This document shows positions 12,623 to 62,952 of a stretch of DNA of 64,000 nt, one piece after another. The notes under the pieces were generated by a model, which had not been told where the DNA came from, did no database searches, and saw nothing but the letters and a program-made list of their open reading frames with translations. The position numbers and the translations under genes are program-made. Source of the stretch: a virus; the IMG/VR virus record IMGVR_UViG_3300008952_000004, positions 125,714-189,713 of that record; one strand, written 5' to 3'. The stretch's first letter is position 1, and every line of letters begins with the position of its first letter.

Positions 12623-13768
12623 ATGCAAATAACAAGGGAAAACTTAAAGAAAATGATTATGGAGTCGATGAAGGCAACAAAGCACTCATCTTTATTGGAA
12701 GCTCCAGAAATGCTTGATGAAAAAAGCATTTTAAAGAACAAATATCCATTTAAGGCAATTTATATTTTTGGACCGGCAGGCTCCGGAAAATCATATATTA
12801 GTTCGAACCTTTTAGGAATTCCTAAAGATTTTGTTGTTTCCAACCCTGACGAGCGAATTGAAGAGGTATTCCCCGCATTCGGAATTAGCATGAAATTTGC
12901 AAATTCAGAAACAGGTGGGGATGCAGACTTGGAAGCATTACAACAAAAATCTCGTGTTATTTTGCAAAATGCCAGCAGAGCGCACACAGCCAATCTAATT
13001 GGTATTGCAAACCCCATCATCTTTGATACCACCGGAGAGGAAGTTCCTAAAATGGTTAAACGCATCGAGGGGTTAACTAAGTTGGGGTATGACGTGGCTG
13101 TATTTATGGTCAACGTACCGACACAAGCATCTGTTGACCGCGATGCGCGACGACAGCGAACTGTGGGTACTAATCGGACCTCAGCCATCTCTGTACAATA
13201 CCAAAAAGAAGTGGTGCAAGGGCAGGGTTACCTTAAAGCACTAGCATCAAATAAAAATGTGACAGTATTGTCTGACGTGTATAATAACATATTTGATTTG
13301 AATACAGGCGAGCTTTTAACGAAACCTACAAAAATCGCACCAGAGATGCTTCCAGATGAACTAAATCCTGAGAAAAACCCTGAAGCATTTGCAAATGAAA
13401 AAGCCAAAATGGAACAGGCTATTAGCAGACTGCAACAATGGGTCAGCACTCCTGTCGAGAATCCGGCAGGACAGGTGGTTCTCAAGGGCATGCGTATGCT
13501 GGTTAAAAAATCCGGAGGCAAGCTGGGGCAGAATTTGAACGATTTGGTGGTGGCTACTGCCAACAAGGAATTTCAGGATTCCGAGATCGTTGCAGCCGCC
13601 GAGCACCTTAGTTTACTCGGCGGAGGAGAAAAGGCAGTGTCTGGTACTATCCGAGGTCAGAAACCTTCCAGCGCTGATACAATTCGTGGAATGACACAGA
13701 ACGAAAATTTAGACTATGATGGGCTTTTAACAAAAGTTCGTGATATCATTTATAATAGACATGAATAA
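12623..13768 (+). CDS. P-loop kinase (zeta-toxin/AAA_33-like) with class B N-terminal leader
   Basis: GPAGSGKS Walker A, IIFDTTG Walker B, R-x3-R lid (RDARRQR); begins MQITRENLKKMIMES. Confidence 0.7.
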   Translation: MQITRENLKKMIMESMKATKHSSLLEAPEMLDEKSILKNKYPFKAIYIFGPAGSGKSYISSNLLGIPKDFVVSNPDERIEEVFPAFGISMKFANSETGGDADLEALQQKSRVILQNASRAHTANLIGIANPIIFDTTGEEVPKMVKRIEGLTKLGYDVAVFMVNVPTQASVDRDARRQRTVGTNRTSAISVQYQKEVVQGQGYLKALASNKNVTVLSDVYNNIFDLNTGELLTKPTKIAPEMLPDELNPEKNPEAFANEKAKMEQAISRLQQWVSTPVENPAGQVVLKGMRMLVKKSGGKLGQNLNDLVVATANKEFQDSEIVAAAEHLSLLGGGEKAVSGTIRGQKPSSADTIRGMTQNENLDYDGLLTKVRDIIYNRHE

Positions 13769-23088: not shown

Positions 23089-23352
23089 GTGATGATAATA
23101 ACAAAACAAGTCTTAAAAGAGATGATAGTCGAAGAGATACAAAAAAGTCTTCTAAGCGAAGAGATAGCCGAAGAGGCAGATCCCGCTCAGGCATATGTTG
23201 ATTGGATCGTTGCGATTCAAGAAGCTGCTACTGAAGCTTTAAAAGAAGTTGAGAGCGGCACCGAACCTTATGAAGCTGCATTTAGCTCTCGACTAAACCA
23301 ATTGGCGTTCGGCTTAACTGGTGAAGATTTTTACCACCACTACTTTAGCTAG
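23089..23352 (+). CDS. Hypothetical protein with class B leader
   Basis: (M)IITKQVLKEMIVEE; AGGAG SD. Confidence 0.65.
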   Translation: MMIITKQVLKEMIVEEIQKSLLSEEIAEEADPAQAYVDWIVAIQEAATEALKEVESGTEPYEAAFSSRLNQLAFGLTGEDFYHHYFS

Positions 23353-26898: not shown

Positions 26899-27351
26899 AT
26901 GAAACTTATAATGGAAAACTTTAGGAAATTTATTAAAGAGGCACAATGGGGAGGCTTTACTGGAGGCGCCGCGCCATTAGATGAACCAGCACCAGACAGC
27001 GGAGTTGTCCCTCCCGAACAGCTAAGAAAGATGTGGGAGATCTATATTGAAATGGGTATGAGCCCCGAAGAGATTTTACAAACCCCAGAGTTTGTTGAAG
27101 CTGGGATTACCGATCCCGAGCAATTGCAAGAAGCAATCACTCTTGATATTGAAGTCGGAGATATTGTTCTCGGCGGCAAGTATAAAAATAAAAGAATCGA
27201 GGTCAAAGAGATTGGCACAGATGATATTGGTCAGCCGACCATCAATGGCAAATCGCTTTTAAAATTTAGAATTGAGAAACAACTACCAGACAGCAAAAAG
27301 AGCAAAAAAACGCTTGATGCGGAAAAAAAGGAAGAGGGGTCAAAAGAATGA
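26899..27351 (+). CDS. Class A leader + C-terminal module paralogous to that of 25530-26594
   Basis: MKLIMENFRKFIKE; LDIEVGDIVLGGKYKNKR..GQPTING..LKFRIEK. Confidence 0.75.
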   Translation: MKLIMENFRKFIKEAQWGGFTGGAAPLDEPAPDSGVVPPEQLRKMWEIYIEMGMSPEEILQTPEFVEAGITDPEQLQEAITLDIEVGDIVLGGKYKNKRIEVKEIGTDDIGQPTINGKSLLKFRIEKQLPDSKKSKKTLDAEKKEEGSKE

Positions 27352-27929
27352 AGAAAATACTAACAGAGTGGCGTAAATATGCCATGAAAGAAGCTTACTA
27401 TGGGGGCGTACCGGGCGAACCAGAAACGCCAGCAGGGTATGGAGGTGCGCTTGACGCAGCGAAGGCTCAGCAACACTTGAGCGATGAGATCGATGACCTA
27501 GTTCGTTTGGGCAAGATAGATATTAATGACTTGTCCGTTGAAACCCTCAGAGCAAATCAAGAAATCCCGTGGGATAAATTTCAAGCCATTGACGATGAAG
27601 TTTTAGGAGATATCATTCGAGACTATCAGAGGAAAAAGAAATTTTATAGAGAGAGTTTGCAAGAAGAACCGCGTGGAGTCTCAGACTTACTTAAGTCGGC
27701 AGAGATGATCCGGTGGCACCTTGGAGCGCTTACAAATGATGCGGGGGACTTGGCTATGCTCACGCAACAACATCAAGAAACCATTGATGAGCTTTTAGCA
27801 GGGCAGAATTTTGAAGAAGCTGTCAAAGCCCTTGAACCCTATATTGAAAAGCTGGGACCATTGGCTCAGGACATCGCGACTGCCCATAAAGATCTTCAGC
27901 TTTTGAAAGACTCACTCAAGGACGGCTAG
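27348..27929 (+). CDS. Class A leader + helical hypothetical
   Basis: MKKILTEWRKYAMKE. Confidence 0.65.
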   Translation: MKKILTEWRKYAMKEAYYGGVPGEPETPAGYGGALDAAKAQQHLSDEIDDLVRLGKIDINDLSVETLRANQEIPWDKFQAIDDEVLGDIIRDYQRKKKFYRESLQEEPRGVSDLLKSAEMIRWHLGALTNDAGDLAMLTQQHQETIDELLAGQNFEEAVKALEPYIEKLGPLAQDIATAHKDLQLLKDSLKDG

Positions 27930-36437: not shown

Positions 36438-37719
36438 TGAATTTTGGAGAAAGATCCCATTGTGGGCTGATGTGGATTATAAAACTTTTATCGACCATCG
36501 CTGGCAAGAAAAGAATGCAATAACGAATCATAAAAAACTTTTAAACACAATTCAGGACTTGGTTAGTACAGACTTTTTAGAGGATGCCAAAGAAGGATTA
36601 CTCAGGGCGCCAATGGCAACACGTATCACTCCCTATCTTCTTTCTTTAATGAATTGGGATAGTCCAGCGGAGTGTCCCATAAGAAAACAATTTCTAACCC
36701 TTGCATCACATCTTCAACCTGACCATCCAATGTTAAGATTTGATAGTCTAAATGAACAGAAGGATTCACCAGTAAAAGGATTGACCCATCGCTACGAAGA
36801 CAAAGTTTTATTTCTTGCTCTCGATACATGTCCTGTGTATTGTCGTTACTGCACTCGTGCTTACGCAGTTGGTAACAGCACGGCAGCAGCAGAAAAAGTG
36901 TCTATCAAAGCCTCTAGAGACAGATGGGGAGACATATTCGAATACTTGCGTATCCACAAAGAAGTAAGGGATGTCGTGATATCTGGTGGAGATTCGTTTC
37001 GCTTGAAGGCTTCACAAATAAAAGAGTTGGGTGAAAACTTACTCAAGATAGAGCACATCAGGCGCTTCCGTTTCGCGACTAAAGGCTTGGCAATTATGCC
37101 TATGAAAATTTTAACTGACAACGACTGGACAGATGCAGTCTGCGACATTGTTGATAAAGCTAGGCAACAATATAAAGAGGTTTGTATACATACACACTTC
37201 AACCACTCAACCGAAATAACTGAGATCACTCAAGACGCTATGAATCTTTTGTTTTCTAGAGGGGTAAAAGTTCGTAACCAGTCAGTTTTTCAAAATGGGG
37301 TTAACGATACAGTGGAGAGTATGGTATCCTTGGTTAAGGACTTGAGTCATATTAATGTACAACCGTACTATGTGTATGTGCATGACTTGACAGGAGGCAC
37401 TGAGGATATGAGAACGTCAGTTCAAACGGCAATCAAGGTGGAGAAGTCGGTGCGAGGTGTTACCGCAGGGTTTAATACACCGCTGTTTGTTGTCGACGCC
37501 CCTGGTGGTGGTGGGAAAAGAGACGCCCATTCGTATGAGTGGTACGATAAGTATAGTGGGATTAGTGTTTGGGAGGCTCCAATGGTTAAGCCCGATCAGA
37601 AATTTTTATACTTTGATCCCTTGCATTCTTTGCAAGAAAATGCTAAGATGGCTTGGATGAATAAAACAACACGTGAGGATATGATTCAACACGCCTTACA
37701 GAGTCGGAGTTACGCATAA
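36418..37719 (+). CDS. kamA: KamA-family radical SAM protein (lysine 2,3-aminomutase-like)
   Basis: THRYEDKV, CPVYCRYCTR, VISGGD, HTHFNH, NQSV, PYYVY, DAPGGGGK (PLP lysine). Confidence 0.9.
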   Translation: MKVFRNDEFWRKIPLWADVDYKTFIDHRWQEKNAITNHKKLLNTIQDLVSTDFLEDAKEGLLRAPMATRITPYLLSLMNWDSPAECPIRKQFLTLASHLQPDHPMLRFDSLNEQKDSPVKGLTHRYEDKVLFLALDTCPVYCRYCTRAYAVGNSTAAAEKVSIKASRDRWGDIFEYLRIHKEVRDVVISGGDSFRLKASQIKELGENLLKIEHIRRFRFATKGLAIMPMKILTDNDWTDAVCDIVDKARQQYKEVCIHTHFNHSTEITEITQDAMNLLFSRGVKVRNQSVFQNGVNDTVESMVSLVKDLSHINVQPYYVYVHDLTGGTEDMRTSVQTAIKVEKSVRGVTAGFNTPLFVVDAPGGGGKRDAHSYEWYDKYSGISVWEAPMVKPDQKFLYFDPLHSLQENAKMAWMNKTTREDMIQHALQSRSYA

Positions 37720-38625: not shown

Positions 38626-40017
38626 ATGAGTGATGATACTCCAAAGTCTACTTTGTGCTGTTCTTTTTGCGGAAAGAGCAGGAAACAGGTTATGACGCTT
38701 ATTGCAGGTACCCGCGTTTATATTTGTGATGAATGTATTGACCTCTGTGCTGAGGTTGTGGAAGACGAGCGCGAGCGAAAAGATACGACTCATCAAAAGG
38801 AAGATTGGATACTTCCGACCCCTAAAGAAATATTTGACCAACTTGAAGAGTATGTTATTGGTCAAACTGAGGCTAAAAGATTATTATCTGTAGCCGTCTA
38901 TAATCATTATAAGCGCGCTGCAATCAACCACAAAGTGAAAGCTGCCGAACGAAAGAACAAAAAACGTCATAGAAAAAAGAAGGTTGACCCAAACCATATT
39001 GATCTAGAGAAGTCCAATATCCTTCTGCTGGGACCAACAGGTTCTGGTAAGACATTACTAGCAAAAACGCTAGCGAAGATCTTGAATGTTCCGTTTGCAA
39101 TTGCTGATGCGACGTCCTTGACCGAAGCGGGATATGTGGGCGAAGATGTTGAGAGTATTTTACATTATTTGGTTCAAAACGCAAACGATGATGTGTCTCG
39201 TGCAGAGCGCGGCATTGTCTACATCGATGAAATTGACAAGATAACTAGAAAGGGCGAAAATACCTCAACAACGCGAGATGTTTCAGGCGAAGGTGTACAG
39301 CAGGCTCTTCTTAAAATTATAGAGGGTACTGTTGCTAGCGTATCTCCGAAGGGCGGACGAAAGCATCCAAATGCAGAATCTATCAAAGTTGATACGAATA
39401 ATATTTTATTTATTTGCGGCGGTGCCTTTGGCGGAATTGAGGATCACGTTGCTGAGCGTTTTAAAGCAAAAGGTGGGCAGGCACTTGGCTTCCTCAAGGG
39501 AGAAGCTGAAGATGGACAGGAACAGATCAACATCAAAGATATTGATAAGGACAGAGTGTATGAATTGGTCGAGCCATCTGATTTGGTTTCCTATGGTCTA
39601 ATATCAGAGTTCATTGGGAGAATCCCTGTTTTAGCTCCGCTTGAAACACTCAGCGAAGAAGCGTTCTTAAAAATCTTAACCGAACCACGTGGCGCCATCA
39701 CGAAACAGTATCAAAAACTCTTCGAAATCGATGGTATAGAGTTGTCTTTTACAAAGGATGCACTTGCCGCCGTTGCAAAAGAGGCTATAAAGAGGGAAAC
39801 TGGTGCGCGTGGACTGCGGGCAATATTTGAATCAGCCATGGCAGATGTTATGTTTGATGCCCCAACAGATAAAGAAAATATTGAGAAAATAACCATTACA
39901 AAGGAGGTGATCACAGATAAGGCAGAGCCCGATATAATTTGTGTATCACCAGACCAGAACGATATGGGCGATATTGAATCAGACCCAGACGTCATCGTAG
40001 AAATTAAAAAAAGTTAA
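38626..40017 (+). CDS. clpX: ATP-dependent Clp protease ATPase subunit ClpX
   Basis: CSFCG..ICDEC zinc-binding domain, [36 protein letters not shown] loop, TGARGLR. Confidence 0.97.
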
Positions 40018-48152: not shown

Positions 48153-48773
48153 ATGTCATACTACCCACCCACGGTGATTGAGAAGACAAAAGACGGCGAA
48201 AGAAGTTACGATATCTATTCAAGACTTTTAAAAGACCGGATTGTTTTCTTGGGTACGCCGGTTGATAACAACGTTGCGAACTCAATCATCGCACAGATGC
48301 TTTTCTTGGAGGAAAGTGATCCGGAAAAGGATATTTTATTTTATATTAATTCGCCCGGTGGCTCTGTGACGGCTGGGCTGGCTATTTTGGATACGATGAA
48401 TTTCGTGCGCCCGGATGTTGCAACGGTGTGCATCGGGCAGGCAGCATCGATGGGCGCGCTCTTGTTGTGCTCGGGTGCTAAAGGCAAAAGGGTAATATTA
48501 CCAAATGCCCGCGTGCTGATTCACCAACCTTTGGGTGGTGCTCAAGGGCAAGCTAGTGACATTGAAATTCAAGCCAATGAGATATTGCGAATGAAAAAGC
48601 GCTTGAATGAAATTATGTCCAAGGCGACTGGGCAACCAATTAAGAAAATTAAACTGGACACTGACCGTGACTATATTATGGAAGCGGAACAGGCGGTTGA
48701 ATATGGCTTGGTTGATAAGGTTGTAGAGAACAATCATCGACCTGTGAACAATGAAGAAGATGAAGATCGGTGA
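48153..48773 (+). CDS. clpP: ATP-dependent Clp protease proteolytic subunit (canonical)
   Basis: [47 protein letters not shown]. Confidence 0.97.
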
Positions 48774-59853: not shown

Positions 59854-59891
59854 ATGGCACTGTGCGCCTGCACAGTGCCATTTTGCGTTTT
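59854..59891 (+). terminator. Intrinsic terminator
   Basis: 12-bp stem ATGGCACTGTGC/GCACAGTGCCAT, 4-nt loop, T-rich tail. Confidence 0.8.
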
Positions 59892-60612: not shown

Positions 60613-60924
60613 ATGTCAACAATCACAAAGACTCAACTTAAACAAATTATTAAAGAAGAATACGAAGCAGTAACACGCGATAAATCCGTGACCGAAGGTA
60701 ACAATACAAGCCGAATGATTACGAAGCTTGAACTCATTCTAAACACAGTAGAAGGGGCTATGGGTTATATTGAAAACCCTGCCGCCGAACAACGCTTCCA
60801 AAGGGCTTTGGATCTCGGACAAGAACTTTGGGAAGAGATGCATAATCTACTCGAAACGAAATCAACCGCGACAGAGCCTGACGTCAATCACAAAGAAACA
60901 AATCATGGAGGAAACTTAAAATGA
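60613..60924 (+). CDS. Class B leader hypothetical protein
   Basis: MSTITKTQLKQIIKEE. Confidence 0.7.
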   Translation: MSTITKTQLKQIIKEEYEAVTRDKSVTEGNNTSRMITKLELILNTVEGAMGYIENPAAEQRFQRALDLGQELWEEMHNLLETKSTATEPDVNHKETNHGGNLK

Positions 60925-61226
60925 AAATCACAAGAGAACAACTTTTAAAAATTATTCAAGAAGAACTAGCCCACTCTGACATCGGCGCTGCGCGATCACC
61001 CGAAGAAGTATTTGCGTCTGCTGACGAAAGCCTCAATCAAGCACACAAGGATTTGCAGATGTTATCTATGCACCTTAAAAATGGAGGGTTTGATACGCAG
61101 CCAGTAGAAAAGATACTTAAGGACGTGGAGAACGATATCATCAATTTAAATGGTCTTGTGAAGGAAGATGTAGAAAAGCTTGGTTCTCTTAAGGGACCAC
61201 TTGAGAGAGGGACAAGAGACAAATGA
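60921..61226 (+). CDS. Class B leader hypothetical protein
   Basis: MKITREQLLKIIQEE. Confidence 0.7.
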   Translation: MKITREQLLKIIQEELAHSDIGAARSPEEVFASADESLNQAHKDLQMLSMHLKNGGFDTQPVEKILKDVENDIINLNGLVKEDVEKLGSLKGPLERGTRDK

Positions 61227-61720
61227 AAATCACAAAGTCACAATTGAAAAAAATTATTTTAGAAGAATATGCCGCTGTCCACGAACTTGGACCGGCAACA
61301 GGACACGAACCGCGCACCGCTCCACTTAAAGCACTACAAGAGATTATCGCAGCGCTCGCAGAGGTGGCTGGCATTATGAAAGATTCCCCTTCACATCGCC
61401 CTGCTGACGAATTCGCTGGTTATTTGAAAAGCATCAGTGAGGAGCTTCAAGCAATCTTTGACGAGTTTTATGGTATTGCCAAACGCACCGGGCATTTGGA
61501 TTTGCCTGAGGGACAAGGACCGAACACCACTAAGACAGATTTTCCAGCAGGTGCTTCTTCAGAATATCCAAAAATGCTGGACAGTTTATATGATGAGATG
61601 CAGAGCTACGAAGCTCGTTATGGAAAGGCACTTCCTAATCCTAAACTGTTGGAAGCTGTTTTGGATACTATTATAAGCCTAGAAGCACATTTAAAAAGAT
61701 TAGAGGAGTCACTTTATTAA
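61223..61720 (+). CDS. Class B leader hypothetical protein
   Basis: MKITKSQLKKIILEE. Confidence 0.7.
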   Translation: MKITKSQLKKIILEEYAAVHELGPATGHEPRTAPLKALQEIIAALAEVAGIMKDSPSHRPADEFAGYLKSISEELQAIFDEFYGIAKRTGHLDLPEGQGPNTTKTDFPAGASSEYPKMLDSLYDEMQSYEARYGKALPNPKLLEAVLDTIISLEAHLKRLEESLY

Positions 61721-62229
61721 TGAAAATCACCAAGTCACAATTGGAAAAAATTATTTTAGAAGAAATCGCTGCTGTTGAAAAAGAAGCCCTCACCGACCGC
61801 GATCTTGCCGGGGGAGACGAGTATGAAGGATTAGATAAAGCAAAATACATGCTTGGGCTATTGCTAGCAAAGATGTCCTCTGACCCAAATACAACAAGAT
61901 ACGCTGATCAGTTGGATAAAATTTTAGTGATGATGCAAGGCGCGGGCGTGAGTGAGGGACGCCTCCCGTTCGGTGATATACACCACGAATATAAACTTAT
62001 TAGAGAATTTGTTTTAAAGCTTCTCACAAAATACGGAGAAACTTATGTGATAGAATCTCTTCGAACGGTATTAGAAGAACTAGAAGATGGGATTCTTGCA
62101 AATGATTTAAATGAAAGGCAGACCGTTGAAGAATCTGACGAGAATTGGCCAACCAAGAGACATCCAGACTTTGAACAATCTAAGATGAAGAAGCTATGGA
62201 TCTTCAAAAGACTTGGGAAAGTGAAATAA
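61720..62229 (+). CDS. Class B leader hypothetical protein
   Basis: MKITKSQLEKIILEE. Confidence 0.7.
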   Translation: MKITKSQLEKIILEEIAAVEKEALTDRDLAGGDEYEGLDKAKYMLGLLLAKMSSDPNTTRYADQLDKILVMMQGAGVSEGRLPFGDIHHEYKLIREFVLKLLTKYGETYVIESLRTVLEELEDGILANDLNERQTVEESDENWPTKRHPDFEQSKMKKLWIFKRLGKVK

Positions 62230-62361
62230 TGAATCATCTACAAAACCAGTTTAACGCAGGATATCCTCTAGAAAAATCTTCTGAATTGCCAGTAATTCTT
62301 AAAGCACTAGATAACGTTCGTATTAAATTGAAAGATGCTCATAGAGGATCAATGAGAGAAA

Positions 62362-62952
62362 ATGAAAATAACTAAACAAGAATTAGCCAAAATCGTCGCC
62401 GAAGAAACAATGGGATACTTCCGAGAGGGTCGGCTTATTAGTAAAAATATAACTGATAATTTAGTAGATCAAATGAACAAAATGGCTGATGTGTTAAATC
62501 AGTTCGACCCTTCCACCGTCGACGATCAAACAGCGGAAGAACTTAATGCTGCACAACAAGCATTAAATTCTGCACTGGAAACAACCTTTGGTGATATGTT
62601 AGCCGCTCCGGTAAAGCAGGCAATGCCCAGTACTCTCGGTGAAGGGTGCGGAGATTTATCACCTGAACCGATGCCTATGCCGGGTCCTCCTCCAGAGGGT
62701 CATGACGCAGAAACGCACACCATTGAGCCAGCATATGATGACCACGAAGGGAAAATGGCAAAGTCCCAGCTTTATAAAATGAATAAATATTCTGAAGAGC
62801 TTATGAGCATACTCAGCGATCATGATCAGCTTCCTTCTTGGGTACAAGCAAAGATTACAAAAGCTGCCGATTATCTTGGAGCCGTTAAACACCATTTAGA
62901 ATATGATCGAGAAGTGGCTCAGATTAATGAAAAGTCTGGGAAAGAAAACTAA
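62362..62952 (+). CDS. Class B leader protein with C-terminal helical domain
   Basis: MKITKQELAKIVAEE; C-terminal HEGKMAKSQL..LPSWVQAKITKAADYL. Confidence 0.75.
   Translation: MKITKQELAKIVAEETMGYFREGRLISKNITDNLVDQMNKMADVLNQFDPSTVDDQTAEELNAAQQALNSALETTFGDMLAAPVKQAMPSTLGEGCGDLSPEPMPMPGPPPEGHDAETHTIEPAYDDHEGKMAKSQLYKMNKYSEELMSILSDHDQLPSWVQAKITKAADYLGAVKHHLEYDREVAQINEKSGKEN

What the first reader, a model, noticed from the sequence alone, without database searches (positions are those of the whole stretch)
60613..62952. Second leader class (MKITKxQLxxIIxEE) on five clustered genes plus 12623 and 23089, with DNA-level leader swapping
Seen: 60613, 60921, 61223, 61720 and 62362 begin with variants of MKITKSQLKxIIxEE, as do the P-loop kinase at 12623 and the ORF at 23089. 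The first 45 nt of 61223 and 61720 differ at only 2 positions, while the rest of the two genes shows no similarity, so the leader behaves as an exchangeable module. Both leader classes end at a Glu in an (I/L/V)xE context. Inference: two address codes for different destinations or timing (for example core versus shell), or recognition by two receptors; new cargo is recruited by recombining a gene behind the leader.
Basis: partly seen in the sequence, partly recalled or inferred. Interest (0 to 1): 0.8.

Follow-up and report, generated by a model that had tools for sequence, protein, structure and literature searches.

The report
Swappable capsid-loading tag on phage proteins
An uncultured marine T4-type phage starts five neighbouring, otherwise unrelated small proteins (and thousands of proteins in related phages) with the same 15-residue tag that ends in the cutting motif of its head protease, so it is most likely a larger, recombining version of phage T4's "load into the head, then clip off" signal, though no experiment shows this yet.

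Summary
Five translationally coupled genes (60613-62952) begin with the same about 15-residue peptide. Genes 12623 and 23092 carry diverged versions. Genes 61223 and 61720 share 43 of 45 leader bases and nothing after about base 57.

The window is the end of a complete 189.7-kb viral record with a T4 gp21-type prohead protease. A degenerate DNA pattern for the tag hits 94 IMG/VR stretches, always at ORF starts, on 76 unrelated cargo groups. A profile of it finds 4,988 protein clusters, many with 2-4 in-frame copies.

All four other near-complete tag-bearing genomes have the protease. The tag ends in I-x-E, the T4 protease motif, and homology and fusion boundaries fall exactly at hydrophobic-x-Glu.

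Leader-linked recombination is shown directly. A near-identical contig differs from gene 61223 at 17 bases, 15 of them inside the leader.

The "two destinations or timing" idea is not supported. Both leader classes are interleaved in the same arrays and swap on orthologous cargo.

Best reading (about 0.6): a T4 CTS-like propeptide system. This is a new variant of a known kind. This scan has reported the same kind of system before on other DNA. Virion proteomics is still missing.

The parts
60613..60924 (+). Leader-B gene 1 (103 aa). The tag is residues 1-16, with one extra residue after Met. The cargo is acidic (pI 4.8) and helical.
   Evidence: 30.6 bits. Ortholog L106:3571-3918, 58% identity.
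60921..61226 (+). Leader-B gene 2 (101 aa). It overlaps the stop of gene 1 (ATGA).
   Evidence: 37.1 bits. Orthologs are L097:1260-1718 (58%) and the C-terminal part of the fused gene L106:5489-6004 (92%). The fusion joint lies exactly after I-x-E.
61223..61720 (+). Leader-B gene 3 (165 aa). It is mosaic: leader, N-domain and C-domain.
   Evidence: 46.5 bits. P0004 carries its C-domain behind the N-domain of gene 61720.
61228..61260 (+). Replaced tract inside the leader of gene 61223 (bases 6-38 of the gene).
   Evidence: Compared with the ortholog on L105, 15 of 17 mismatches in 500 bases lie in this tract (P about 1e-24). The tract matches the neighbouring 61720 leader. The ortholog's tract matches the 60921-type leader, and the sequence upstream of the gene also differs.
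61720..62229 (+). Leader-B gene 4 (169 aa). It is a fusion of two cargo units: residues 1-82 (unit X) and residues 83-160 (unit Y). The tail is frameshifted.
   Evidence: 41.9 bits. L105 has only unit X (85 aa) and lacks window 61965-62341. P0159 carries unit Y and ORF 62196 in one frame.
62196..62375 (+). Leaderless 59-aa ORF. It is the out-of-frame remainder of cargo unit Y.
   Evidence: It is 49% identical to the cargo of the B-led gene L097:1724-1969. It is in frame with unit Y in P0159 and P0160.
62362..62952 (+). Leader-B gene 5 (196 aa): tag, N-domain, Pro-rich linker, then a conserved C-terminal domain (residues 127-182).
   Evidence: 37.6 bits. Its leader uses different synonymous codons from genes 1-4. 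The C-domain occurs without a leader in L100 and L101.
12623..13768 (+). P-loop kinase (AAA_33 / Zeta-toxin-like, 381 aa) with a diverged B-type leader and a conserved L-D-E one residue before the kinase core (which starts at the second residue after that Glu).
   Evidence: Pfam: AAA_33 E 3e-7, Zeta_toxin E 5e-6. Of 107 orthologs, 92 have B-like, 7 A-like and 8 degenerate leaders. Where the core motif was found, an L-x-E (L-D/K/A/S/E-E) ends one residue before it.
23092..23352 (+). 86-aa ORF with a diverged B-type leader. An alternative GTG start lies at 23089.
   Evidence: It matches the loose pattern but not the profile. The cargo is very acidic (pI 4.1).
27348..27929 (+). Class-A-led gene whose ortholog in a related phage is B-led. 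This is evidence of a leader-class swap.
   Evidence: It is 55% identical to L097:1966-2616. Homology begins exactly after the hydrophobic-x-Glu that ends each leader. The L099 ortholog is A-led.

Best explanation
The tag is most likely a prohead-targeting propeptide of the T4 capsid-targeting-sequence (CTS) kind.

Proposed mechanism:
1. An amphipathic N-terminal helix of about 15-22 residues gives each carrier affinity for the assembling prohead core.
2. After the shell closes, the phage's gp21-type serine protease cuts after Glu in hydrophobic-x-Glu. Candidate sites are I-x-E at residues 12-14, often a second site near residue 21-22, and L-x-E just before the kinase core.
3. Cutting releases the cargo inside the head. 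From there it is either delivered with the DNA or expelled as core debris.

Because the tag is a short sequence shared by neighbouring genes, it also serves as a site of homologous exchange. Leaders are therefore homogenised, swapped between classes, and cargo units are fused, split and lost.

Shown: the tag's strict position, its portability, its spread, its co-occurrence with the protease, the motif at module boundaries, and the recombination events.

Inferred: binding to the core, cleavage, packaging and delivery.
For: 1. The genome encodes a Peptidase_S77 (T4 gp21) protease at genome 92210-92815, E 4e-37. It lies in a TerL-portal-protease-scaffold-MCP module.

2. The tag occurs only at ORF starts in this genome.

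3. The IMG/VR pattern scan gives 94 stretches and 103 ORF starts. The 107 tag-led proteins compared, which include the window's own seven and genome 86610, fall into 76 cargo groups with no mutual BLAST hit. 73 of 75 have no Pfam family.

4. A 32-column leader profile finds 4,988 representatives at E<=1e-3 among 1.84 billion.

5. The protease is present in 25 of 38 host records, in 12 of 13 records of at least 100 kb, and in 4 of 4 records at least 90% complete. It is also over-represented on short fragments (13 observed versus 6.3 expected, P 0.003).

6. Module boundaries coincide with hydrophobic-x-Glu:
- the A/B swap joint on the 27348 family;
- the fusion joint in L106:5489-6004;
- L-x-E ending one residue before the kinase core in the orthologs where the core motif was found;
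- 89 of 130 internal tag copies have such a site within 7 residues upstream, against 21% expected.

7. In a MAFFT alignment the MCP of this phage places L-R-E|A at the column where T4 gp23 has L-T-E|A. That this is T4's Glu65/Ala66 cut is from my own knowledge. The L/I-x-E specificity of gp21 is stated in PMC9026906.

8. B-like N-termini sit on small genes inside the head module (genome 86610, and two genes of Flavobacterium phage immuto).

9. T4 control: ipII and ipIII share 30/30 CTS bases, and about 48 bases of continuous identity when the shared upstream sequence and the two bases after the CTS are counted. They are then unrelated. This is the same signature as 61223/61720.

10. Internal in-frame copies, 51 of 130 without a Met, show that the peptide works as protein and does not need a free N-terminus.
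Against: - There is no proteomic, structural or genetic test. No cultured phage with the strict tag was found.
- All T4-type phages have the protease, so the co-occurrence may only mark a clade.
- Several contigs in the enrichment test are near-duplicates.
- Cargo is mostly acidic (median pI 5.1), unlike the basic T4 internal proteins.
- The array sits about 95 kb from the head genes, among small accessory genes.
- I-x-E inside the strict set was fixed by my search pattern.
- The E-(N/G)-K-M motif before internal copies could instead reflect a Shine-Dalgarno sequence.
- The tag has no sequence similarity to the T4 CTS beyond the terminal I-x-E.
Confidence: 0.62

Rival explanations
1. The tag is a docking helix for some other shared partner, such as a chaperone, a membrane or replication compartment, or an oligomerisation platform. 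It is unrelated to capsid loading, and the hydrophobic-x-Glu ending is incidental to a Lys/Glu-rich helix.
For: - The helix is amphipathic and predicted helical over residues 5-25, at low confidence.
- Cargo is acidic.
- The array lies among accessory genes far from the head module.
- Glu-rich helices give hydrophobic-x-Glu often: about 3% per position in these proteins.
Against: - Boundaries of homology, fusions and the kinase core fall exactly at hydrophobic-x-Glu.
- Such sites are enriched threefold before internal copies.
- The T4 signature is reproduced.
- No alternative partner gene was found. Phage ClpX is absent from 4 of 5 other large carrier genomes.
Confidence: 0.17
2. The carriers are targeted to the prohead and cut, but they are expendable core or scaffold fillers like T4 gp67, gp68 and gp22. 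They would be degraded and expelled before DNA packaging rather than delivered to the host.
For: - The cargo is acidic, helical and of low complexity.
- B-like leaders occur on small genes between portal and protease in immuto, and next to the terminase gene here.
- T4 gp67 is likewise small and acidic.
Against: - The cargo is extremely diverse: 76 unrelated groups and about 5,000 clusters.
- Carriers include a conserved P-loop kinase and, behind class-A leaders, proteins that the first readers of this window read by eye as enzyme-like (notes returned, not tested here). This is not expected of fillers.
- Turnover between close relatives resembles the T-even internal-protein loci (PMC3012670).
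Confidence: 0.1
3. The tag is the recognition sequence of a modifying enzyme (RiPP-like, for example a radical-SAM maturase). An earlier report of this scan reached that conclusion for a different shared tag in phage RB43.
For: An earlier scan note (e1-127136) shows that shared phage tags are not always capsid signals. Four of five large carrier genomes have a radical-SAM hit.
Against: - The radical-SAM genes differ in size (358-661 aa).
- One genome lacks any radical-SAM hit.
- The window's copy (36613-37719) is lysine-2,3-aminomutase-like and has no SPASM domain.
- The tag has no Cys, Ser or Thr pattern typical of such substrates.
Confidence: 0.04
4. The tag is an N-terminal degradation signal for ClpXP, which this phage encodes. 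Alternatively it is a nucleic-acid-level element (a translation enhancer), or the genes are ordinary paralogs.
For: The phage has ClpX (38626-40017) and ClpP (48153-48773). Class A fits the published Met-basic-hydrophobic ClpX N-motif by eye (own knowledge).
Against: - ClpX is absent from the other carrier genomes.
- Internal copies without a free N-terminus are common.
- Synonymous codons vary between leaders.
- Cargo parts are unrelated.
Confidence: 0.04

Closest known systems
Phage T4 capsid targeting sequence (CTS) of internal proteins IPI, IPII and IPIII, with the polymorphic ip loci of T-even phages
   Same: - A short N-terminal peptide is shared by otherwise unrelated small proteins.
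- It ends in I-x-E.
- The genome has a gp21-family protease.
- Adjacent genes share the leader at DNA level and then diverge: T4 ipII/ipIII share 30/30 CTS bases, the window pair 43/45.
- Cargo turns over quickly between relatives (PMC3012670, PMC9026906).
   Different: - There is no sequence similarity to the 10-residue T4 CTS.
- The tag is longer (15-22 residues).
- At least two interchangeable tag classes occur in one genome.
- There are thousands of cargo clusters rather than a handful.
- In-frame multi-unit polyproteins occur.
- Cargo is mostly acidic.
- A conserved kinase is among the carriers.
- Function is untested.
Propeptides of inner-body and ejection proteins of giant phages phiKZ, 201phi2-1 and SPN3US, removed by gp21-like proteases (gp175, gp245)
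   Same: - Many head-internal proteins are processed after Glu in a three-residue motif by a diverged gp21 homolog.
- Propeptides carry redundant cleavage sites (PMC9026906).
   Different: - Those motifs are S/A/G-x-E.
- Their propeptides are long and are not one shared short tag.
- Here the protease is a close S77 member and the tag is a conserved portable peptide.
T4 prohead core proteins gp22, gp67 and gp68, and the gp24 and gp23 propeptides
   Same: - They have N-termini with hydrophobic-x-Glu.
- Small acidic proteins are encoded beside portal and protease.
- They are cut into pieces by gp21.
   Different: They are conserved core components, not a variable cargo set. The tag-led genes here lie mostly outside the head module.
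Encapsulin cargo-loading peptides
   Same: A short portable peptide directs diverse cargo into an HK97-fold shell (own knowledge).
   Different: The encapsulin peptide is usually C-terminal, is not removed by a protease, binds the shell rather than a scaffold core, and is not a virus delivery system.

Membership tests
T4-type CTS / prohead-protease propeptide system | The genome encodes a gp21-family (Peptidase_S77) prohead protease. | tested here: met
   PF03420 at 124 bits, E 4e-37, genome 92210-92815. The nearest cultured homologs are annotated as prohead proteases.
T4-type CTS / prohead-protease propeptide system | A short peptide at the extreme N-terminus is shared by proteins that are otherwise unrelated. 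| tested here: met
   The 107 tag-led proteins fall into 76 cargo groups, and the five window cargos give no mutual hit.
T4-type CTS / prohead-protease propeptide system | The peptide ends in the protease motif L/I-x-E. | tested here: met
   - All seven window leaders have (I/V)-x-E at the equivalent position.
- L-x-E ends one residue before the kinase core in the orthologs where the core motif was found.
- Swap and fusion joints lie at hydrophobic-x-Glu.
- Caveat: in the strict IMG/VR set this position was fixed by the search pattern.
T4-type CTS / prohead-protease propeptide system | Sequence homology to the T4 CTS decapeptide. | tested here: not met
   The T4 ipII/ipIII CTS was retrieved. 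It has no similarity to the tag apart from the terminal I-x-E, so this is an analog, not a homolog.
T4-type CTS / prohead-protease propeptide system | The peptide is necessary and sufficient for incorporation into the prohead. | not testable with these tools
   This needs tag-reporter fusions in a carrier phage or a procapsid assembly system.
T4-type CTS / prohead-protease propeptide system | The peptide is removed by the protease during head maturation. | not testable with these tools
   This needs N-terminomics of virions or an in-vitro cleavage assay.
Radical-SAM/RiPP-type recognition tag | One maturase family strictly co-occurs with the tag carriers. | tested here: not met
   The radical-SAM hits are heterogeneous and absent from one of five genomes. 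The window's copy is KamA-like.
ClpX N-terminal degron | The signal needs a free N-terminus and a ClpXP partner. | tested here: not met
   There are 130 internal copies in polyproteins, 51 of them without Met. Phage ClpX is absent from the other carrier genomes. Host ClpX cannot be excluded.

The most novel reading that the evidence does not exclude
Marine T4-type phages may run a general protein-delivery platform. Under this reading, a small set of interchangeable N-terminal tags loads hundreds to thousands of fast-evolving proteins into the capsid for injection. The cargo would include enzymes and multi-unit polyproteins that the head protease cuts apart. The tags would double as recombination linkers that let cargo cassettes be swapped, fused and replaced between phages. 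A bolder sub-claim is that the two tag classes bind different receptors in the prohead. I put that sub-claim at about 0.15, because the classes swap on the same cargo.
Probability: 0.4. Interest if true: 0.8.

Novelty: new variant of a known kind. Interest (0 to 1): 0.6.

Why it matters
If the tag is a loading signal, T4's three-protein curiosity becomes a widespread, large-scale effector-delivery system of ocean phages. Thousands of "hypothetical" viral proteins would gain a predicted location (inside the capsid) and a predicted time of action (the first seconds of infection). Candidates for anti-defence or host-takeover proteins could be picked out by their tag. The system would also offer a natural, modular tag for packaging foreign proteins into phage heads. 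The recombination data show how a short shared coding segment can drive cassette shuffling of accessory genes.

Tried and rejected
- Complex prediction of the putative scaffold protein (L109:13382-14359) with residues 1-45 of gene 60921 gave no verdict. It is not counted either way.
- AlphaFold2 of gene 61223 with a 9-row alignment gave pLDDT 56, all helical, with helix 5-25 over the leader. This is too weak for a fold search, so none was run.
- The strict tag pattern with up to 2 mismatches is absent from Flavobacterium phage immuto, Microcystis phage Mel-JY01 and Synechococcus phage S-CAM3.
- tblastn of a 26-residue leader against 50,697 phage records found nothing. The query is short and the low-complexity filter was on, so this is weak.
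- tblastn of gene 61223 found only chance-level hits.
- Pfam and PHROGs give no family for the five cluster proteins or for the small head-module proteins.
- The protein atlas returned only viral hypothetical clusters for the C-domain of gene 62362.
- T4-type late-promoter words are not enriched, and sigma-70-like sites are at shuffle level. No timing information was gained.
- The search for related loci with gene 63290 found no relative.
- Full-text search found no paper that prints the tag and none that describes such a tag in marine phages.
- Searches were input slips.
- The ordinary-paralog reading is rejected for the window genes. However, relatives show that genes 61223 and 61720 belong to a mosaic set that shares domains (P0004, P0003, P0159).
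Full report
**What is there.**
The window is the last 64 kb of a 189,713-base IMG/VR viral record that CheckV rates as complete. All genes lie on the + strand.

Five ORFs at 60613, 60921, 61223, 61720 and 62362 are joined by ATGA/TAATG overlaps and have SD-like purine runs upstream. Each begins with M-K-I-T-K-x-Q-L-x-K-I-I-x-E-E; gene 60613 has one extra residue.

A loose pattern finds this peptide at exactly seven places in the genome. All seven are ORF starts on the coding strand. A profile built from 72 unrelated carriers scores the five cluster genes at 30-46 bits and nothing else above 8 bits. Genes 12623 and 23092 are therefore diverged variants. A further weak variant heads a 105-residue gene just upstream of the terminase gene (genome 86610).

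Genes 61223 and 61720 share 43 of 45 leader bases and 51 of 60, then nothing. The sequence upstream of each is unrelated.

**Genomic setting.**
The genome has a T4 gp21-type prohead protease (Peptidase_S77, E 4e-37) in a terminase-portal-protease-scaffold-MCP module. The closest cultured proteases are those of Flavobacterium phage immuto (46%), Microcystis phage Mel-JY01 and T4-like cyanophages.

In a MAFFT alignment with T4 gp23, the MCP of this phage places L-R-E|A at the column where T4 has L-T-E|A. That this is T4's maturation cut is from my own knowledge. The L/I-x-E rule for gp21 is stated in PMC9026906.

**Spread and portability.**
A degenerate DNA pattern for the tag carries about 55 bits of information, so essentially no chance hits are expected. 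It matched 94 IMG/VR stretches and 103 ORF starts.

The parts of these proteins after residue 17 fall into 76 groups with no BLAST hit to one another. 73 of 75 have no Pfam family.

Positions my pattern left free are still conserved. Residue 16 is L, I or V in 57 of 72. A second hydrophobic-x-Glu ends at residue 21 or 22 in 31 of 72. Conservation is gone by about residue 23.

An exhaustive profile search of 1.84 billion cluster representatives gave 4,988 proteins at E<=1e-3. Many top hits hold 2-4 in-frame copies. Of 130 internal copies, 51 lack a Met. 89 have a hydrophobic-x-Glu within the seven residues upstream, against 21% expected. The peptide therefore acts as protein, does not need a free N-terminus, and is flanked by protease-like sites. 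One caveat is that the E-(N/G)-K-M motif before internal copies could also be a fossil ribosome-binding site.

**Link to the protease.**
Of 38 host records searched, 25 have the S77 protease. This includes 12 of 13 records of at least 100 kb and 4 of 4 records at least 90% complete. Short fragments carry it twice as often as their completeness predicts (13 versus 6.3, P 0.003), though some of these contigs are near-duplicates.

All T4-type phages have this protease, so the link may partly be phylogenetic.

Phage-encoded ClpX is absent from 4 of 5 other large carrier genomes. Radical-SAM genes are heterogeneous, and the window's copy is KamA-like. I found no rival partner.

**Module boundaries sit at hydrophobic-x-Glu.**
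1. Gene 27348 carries a class-A leader. Its ortholog on L097 (55% identity) carries a B-type leader, and the ortholog on L099 carries a class-A leader. Homology starts exactly after the x-E that ends each leader.
2. L106:5489-6004 is a natural fusion. A cargo like that of L097:810-1259 ends in I-G-E and is joined directly to the cargo of gene 60921, at the residue after that gene's I-Q-E.
3. The kinase of gene 12623 has 107 orthologs of 41-100% identity. All carry a leader: 92 B-like, 7 A-like and 8 degenerate. Where the core motif was found, an L-x-E ends one residue before the conserved core.

**Recombination at the leader.**
Contig L105 (ENA) is 97% identical to window 61221-61964. Across gene 61223 it differs at 17 of 500 bases, and 15 of these lie at bases 6-38 of the leader (P about 1e-24). 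The sequence upstream of the gene is different as well.

The window's version of this tract equals the neighbouring 61720 leader. The L105 version, like most orthologs, resembles the 60921 type. The 43/45 identity is therefore a recent replacement, by gene conversion or by a crossover inside the leader.

The leaders of genes 60613-61720 share codons, whereas those of 62362, 12623 and 23092 differ at synonymous sites. This means local DNA homogenisation is superimposed on protein-level selection. Adjacent leaders in other contigs show the same pattern; L026 has 45/45.

Cargo is mosaic too:
- P0004 joins the N-domain of gene 61720 to the C-domain of gene 61223.
- P0159 shows that residues 83-160 of gene 61720 and the leaderless ORF 62196-62375 were once one B-led gene.
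- Gene 61720 in the window is therefore a fusion with a frameshifted tail.
- L105 lacks that 377-base segment altogether.

**T4 control.**
In T4, ipII and ipIII start with the same 30 bases and share about 16 bases upstream, then are unrelated. This is the same signature. Reviews describe T-even internal proteins as a diverse set united only by the CTS, which targets them to the scaffolding core and is removed by gp21 (PMC3012670, PMC9026906).

**Two classes.**
A pattern for class A hit at least 120 IMG/VR stretches. Class A and class B genes are interleaved in the same tandem arrays (L012, L099). They co-occur in 10 of 94 B-derived loci and 16 of 78 A-derived loci. Together with the swaps on orthologous cargo, this argues against different timing. 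It also makes different destinations unlikely, though not excluded.

**Differences from T4, and open points.**
- The tag is longer than the T4 CTS and unrelated to it in sequence.
- Cargo is mostly acidic (median pI 5.1).
- The array lies far from the head genes.
- No cultured carrier of the strict tag was found.
- No paper in the library prints the tag.
- The complex prediction gave no verdict and the fold was of low confidence.
- Packaging, cleavage and delivery are inferences.

**Verdict.**
The best reading (0.62) is a CTS-like, protease-clipped prohead-targeting tag that also acts as a recombination module. This is a new variant of a known kind. Earlier reports of this scan describe the same kind of system on other genomes.

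Noticed in passing
window 61720-62375: Gene 61720 is a fusion of two cargo units, and its tail is frameshifted against ORF 62196. Relatives carry the second unit as one B-led ORF (P0159, 224 aa). It is either a decaying gene or two products.
   Followed up: yes
P0009-P0158: Many metagenomic proteins are in-frame chains of 2-4 tag-plus-cargo units, often without a Met at the internal tags. They look like polyproteins for the head protease.
   Followed up: partly
window 62740-62910 (residues 127-182 of gene 62362); L100:4929-5294; L101:1108-1473: A strongly conserved roughly 55-residue C-terminal domain also occurs as a leaderless 121-residue protein in other viral contigs. Its function is unknown. 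It is preceded by D-H-E-G-K-M, which resembles the pre-tag motif of the polyproteins.
   Followed up: partly
window 36613-37719: A lysine-2,3-aminomutase-like radical-SAM protein (LAM_C E 8e-6; Radical_SAM below its cut-off). This is an unusual auxiliary gene for a phage.
   Followed up: partly
window 38626-40017 and 48153-48773: The N-termini read as phage-encoded ClpX and ClpP by eye; no family search was run on either. A search with the ClpX-like protein found no clear homolog in the other large tag-carrying genomes examined: none in four, and a weak 81-residue hit (E 3e-7) in G008.
   Followed up: partly
window 59854-59881: A strong terminator-like hairpin (12-bp stem, then a T run) on the + strand, upstream of the transcription unit that holds the array.
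   Followed up: no
window 35794-60569 and genome 945-1844: There are many small SH3/KOW-like genes that start M-K-V-G-D-L-V. Orthologs flank the array in L106 too, so the tag array sits at a conserved edge of this mini-gene region.
   Followed up: no
L097:3351-4403: The related contig has a 350-residue protein with a Gly-rich G-G-G-G-G-K motif next to its tag array. It is possibly tubulin/FtsZ-like. It has no counterpart in the window.
   Followed up: no
L096 (Flavobacterium phage immuto) 493-1251, 5937-6236, 10660-10881, 12546-12773: The nearest cultured phage has loose B-like and A-like N-termini on small head-module genes. This makes it a practical system for virion N-terminomics.
   Followed up: partly
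L227 (T4 64189-67218, minus strand): T4 ipII and ipIII share about 48 identical bases (ribosome-binding site plus CTS) and are then unrelated. This serves as a positive control for the DNA-level leader signature.
   Followed up: yes
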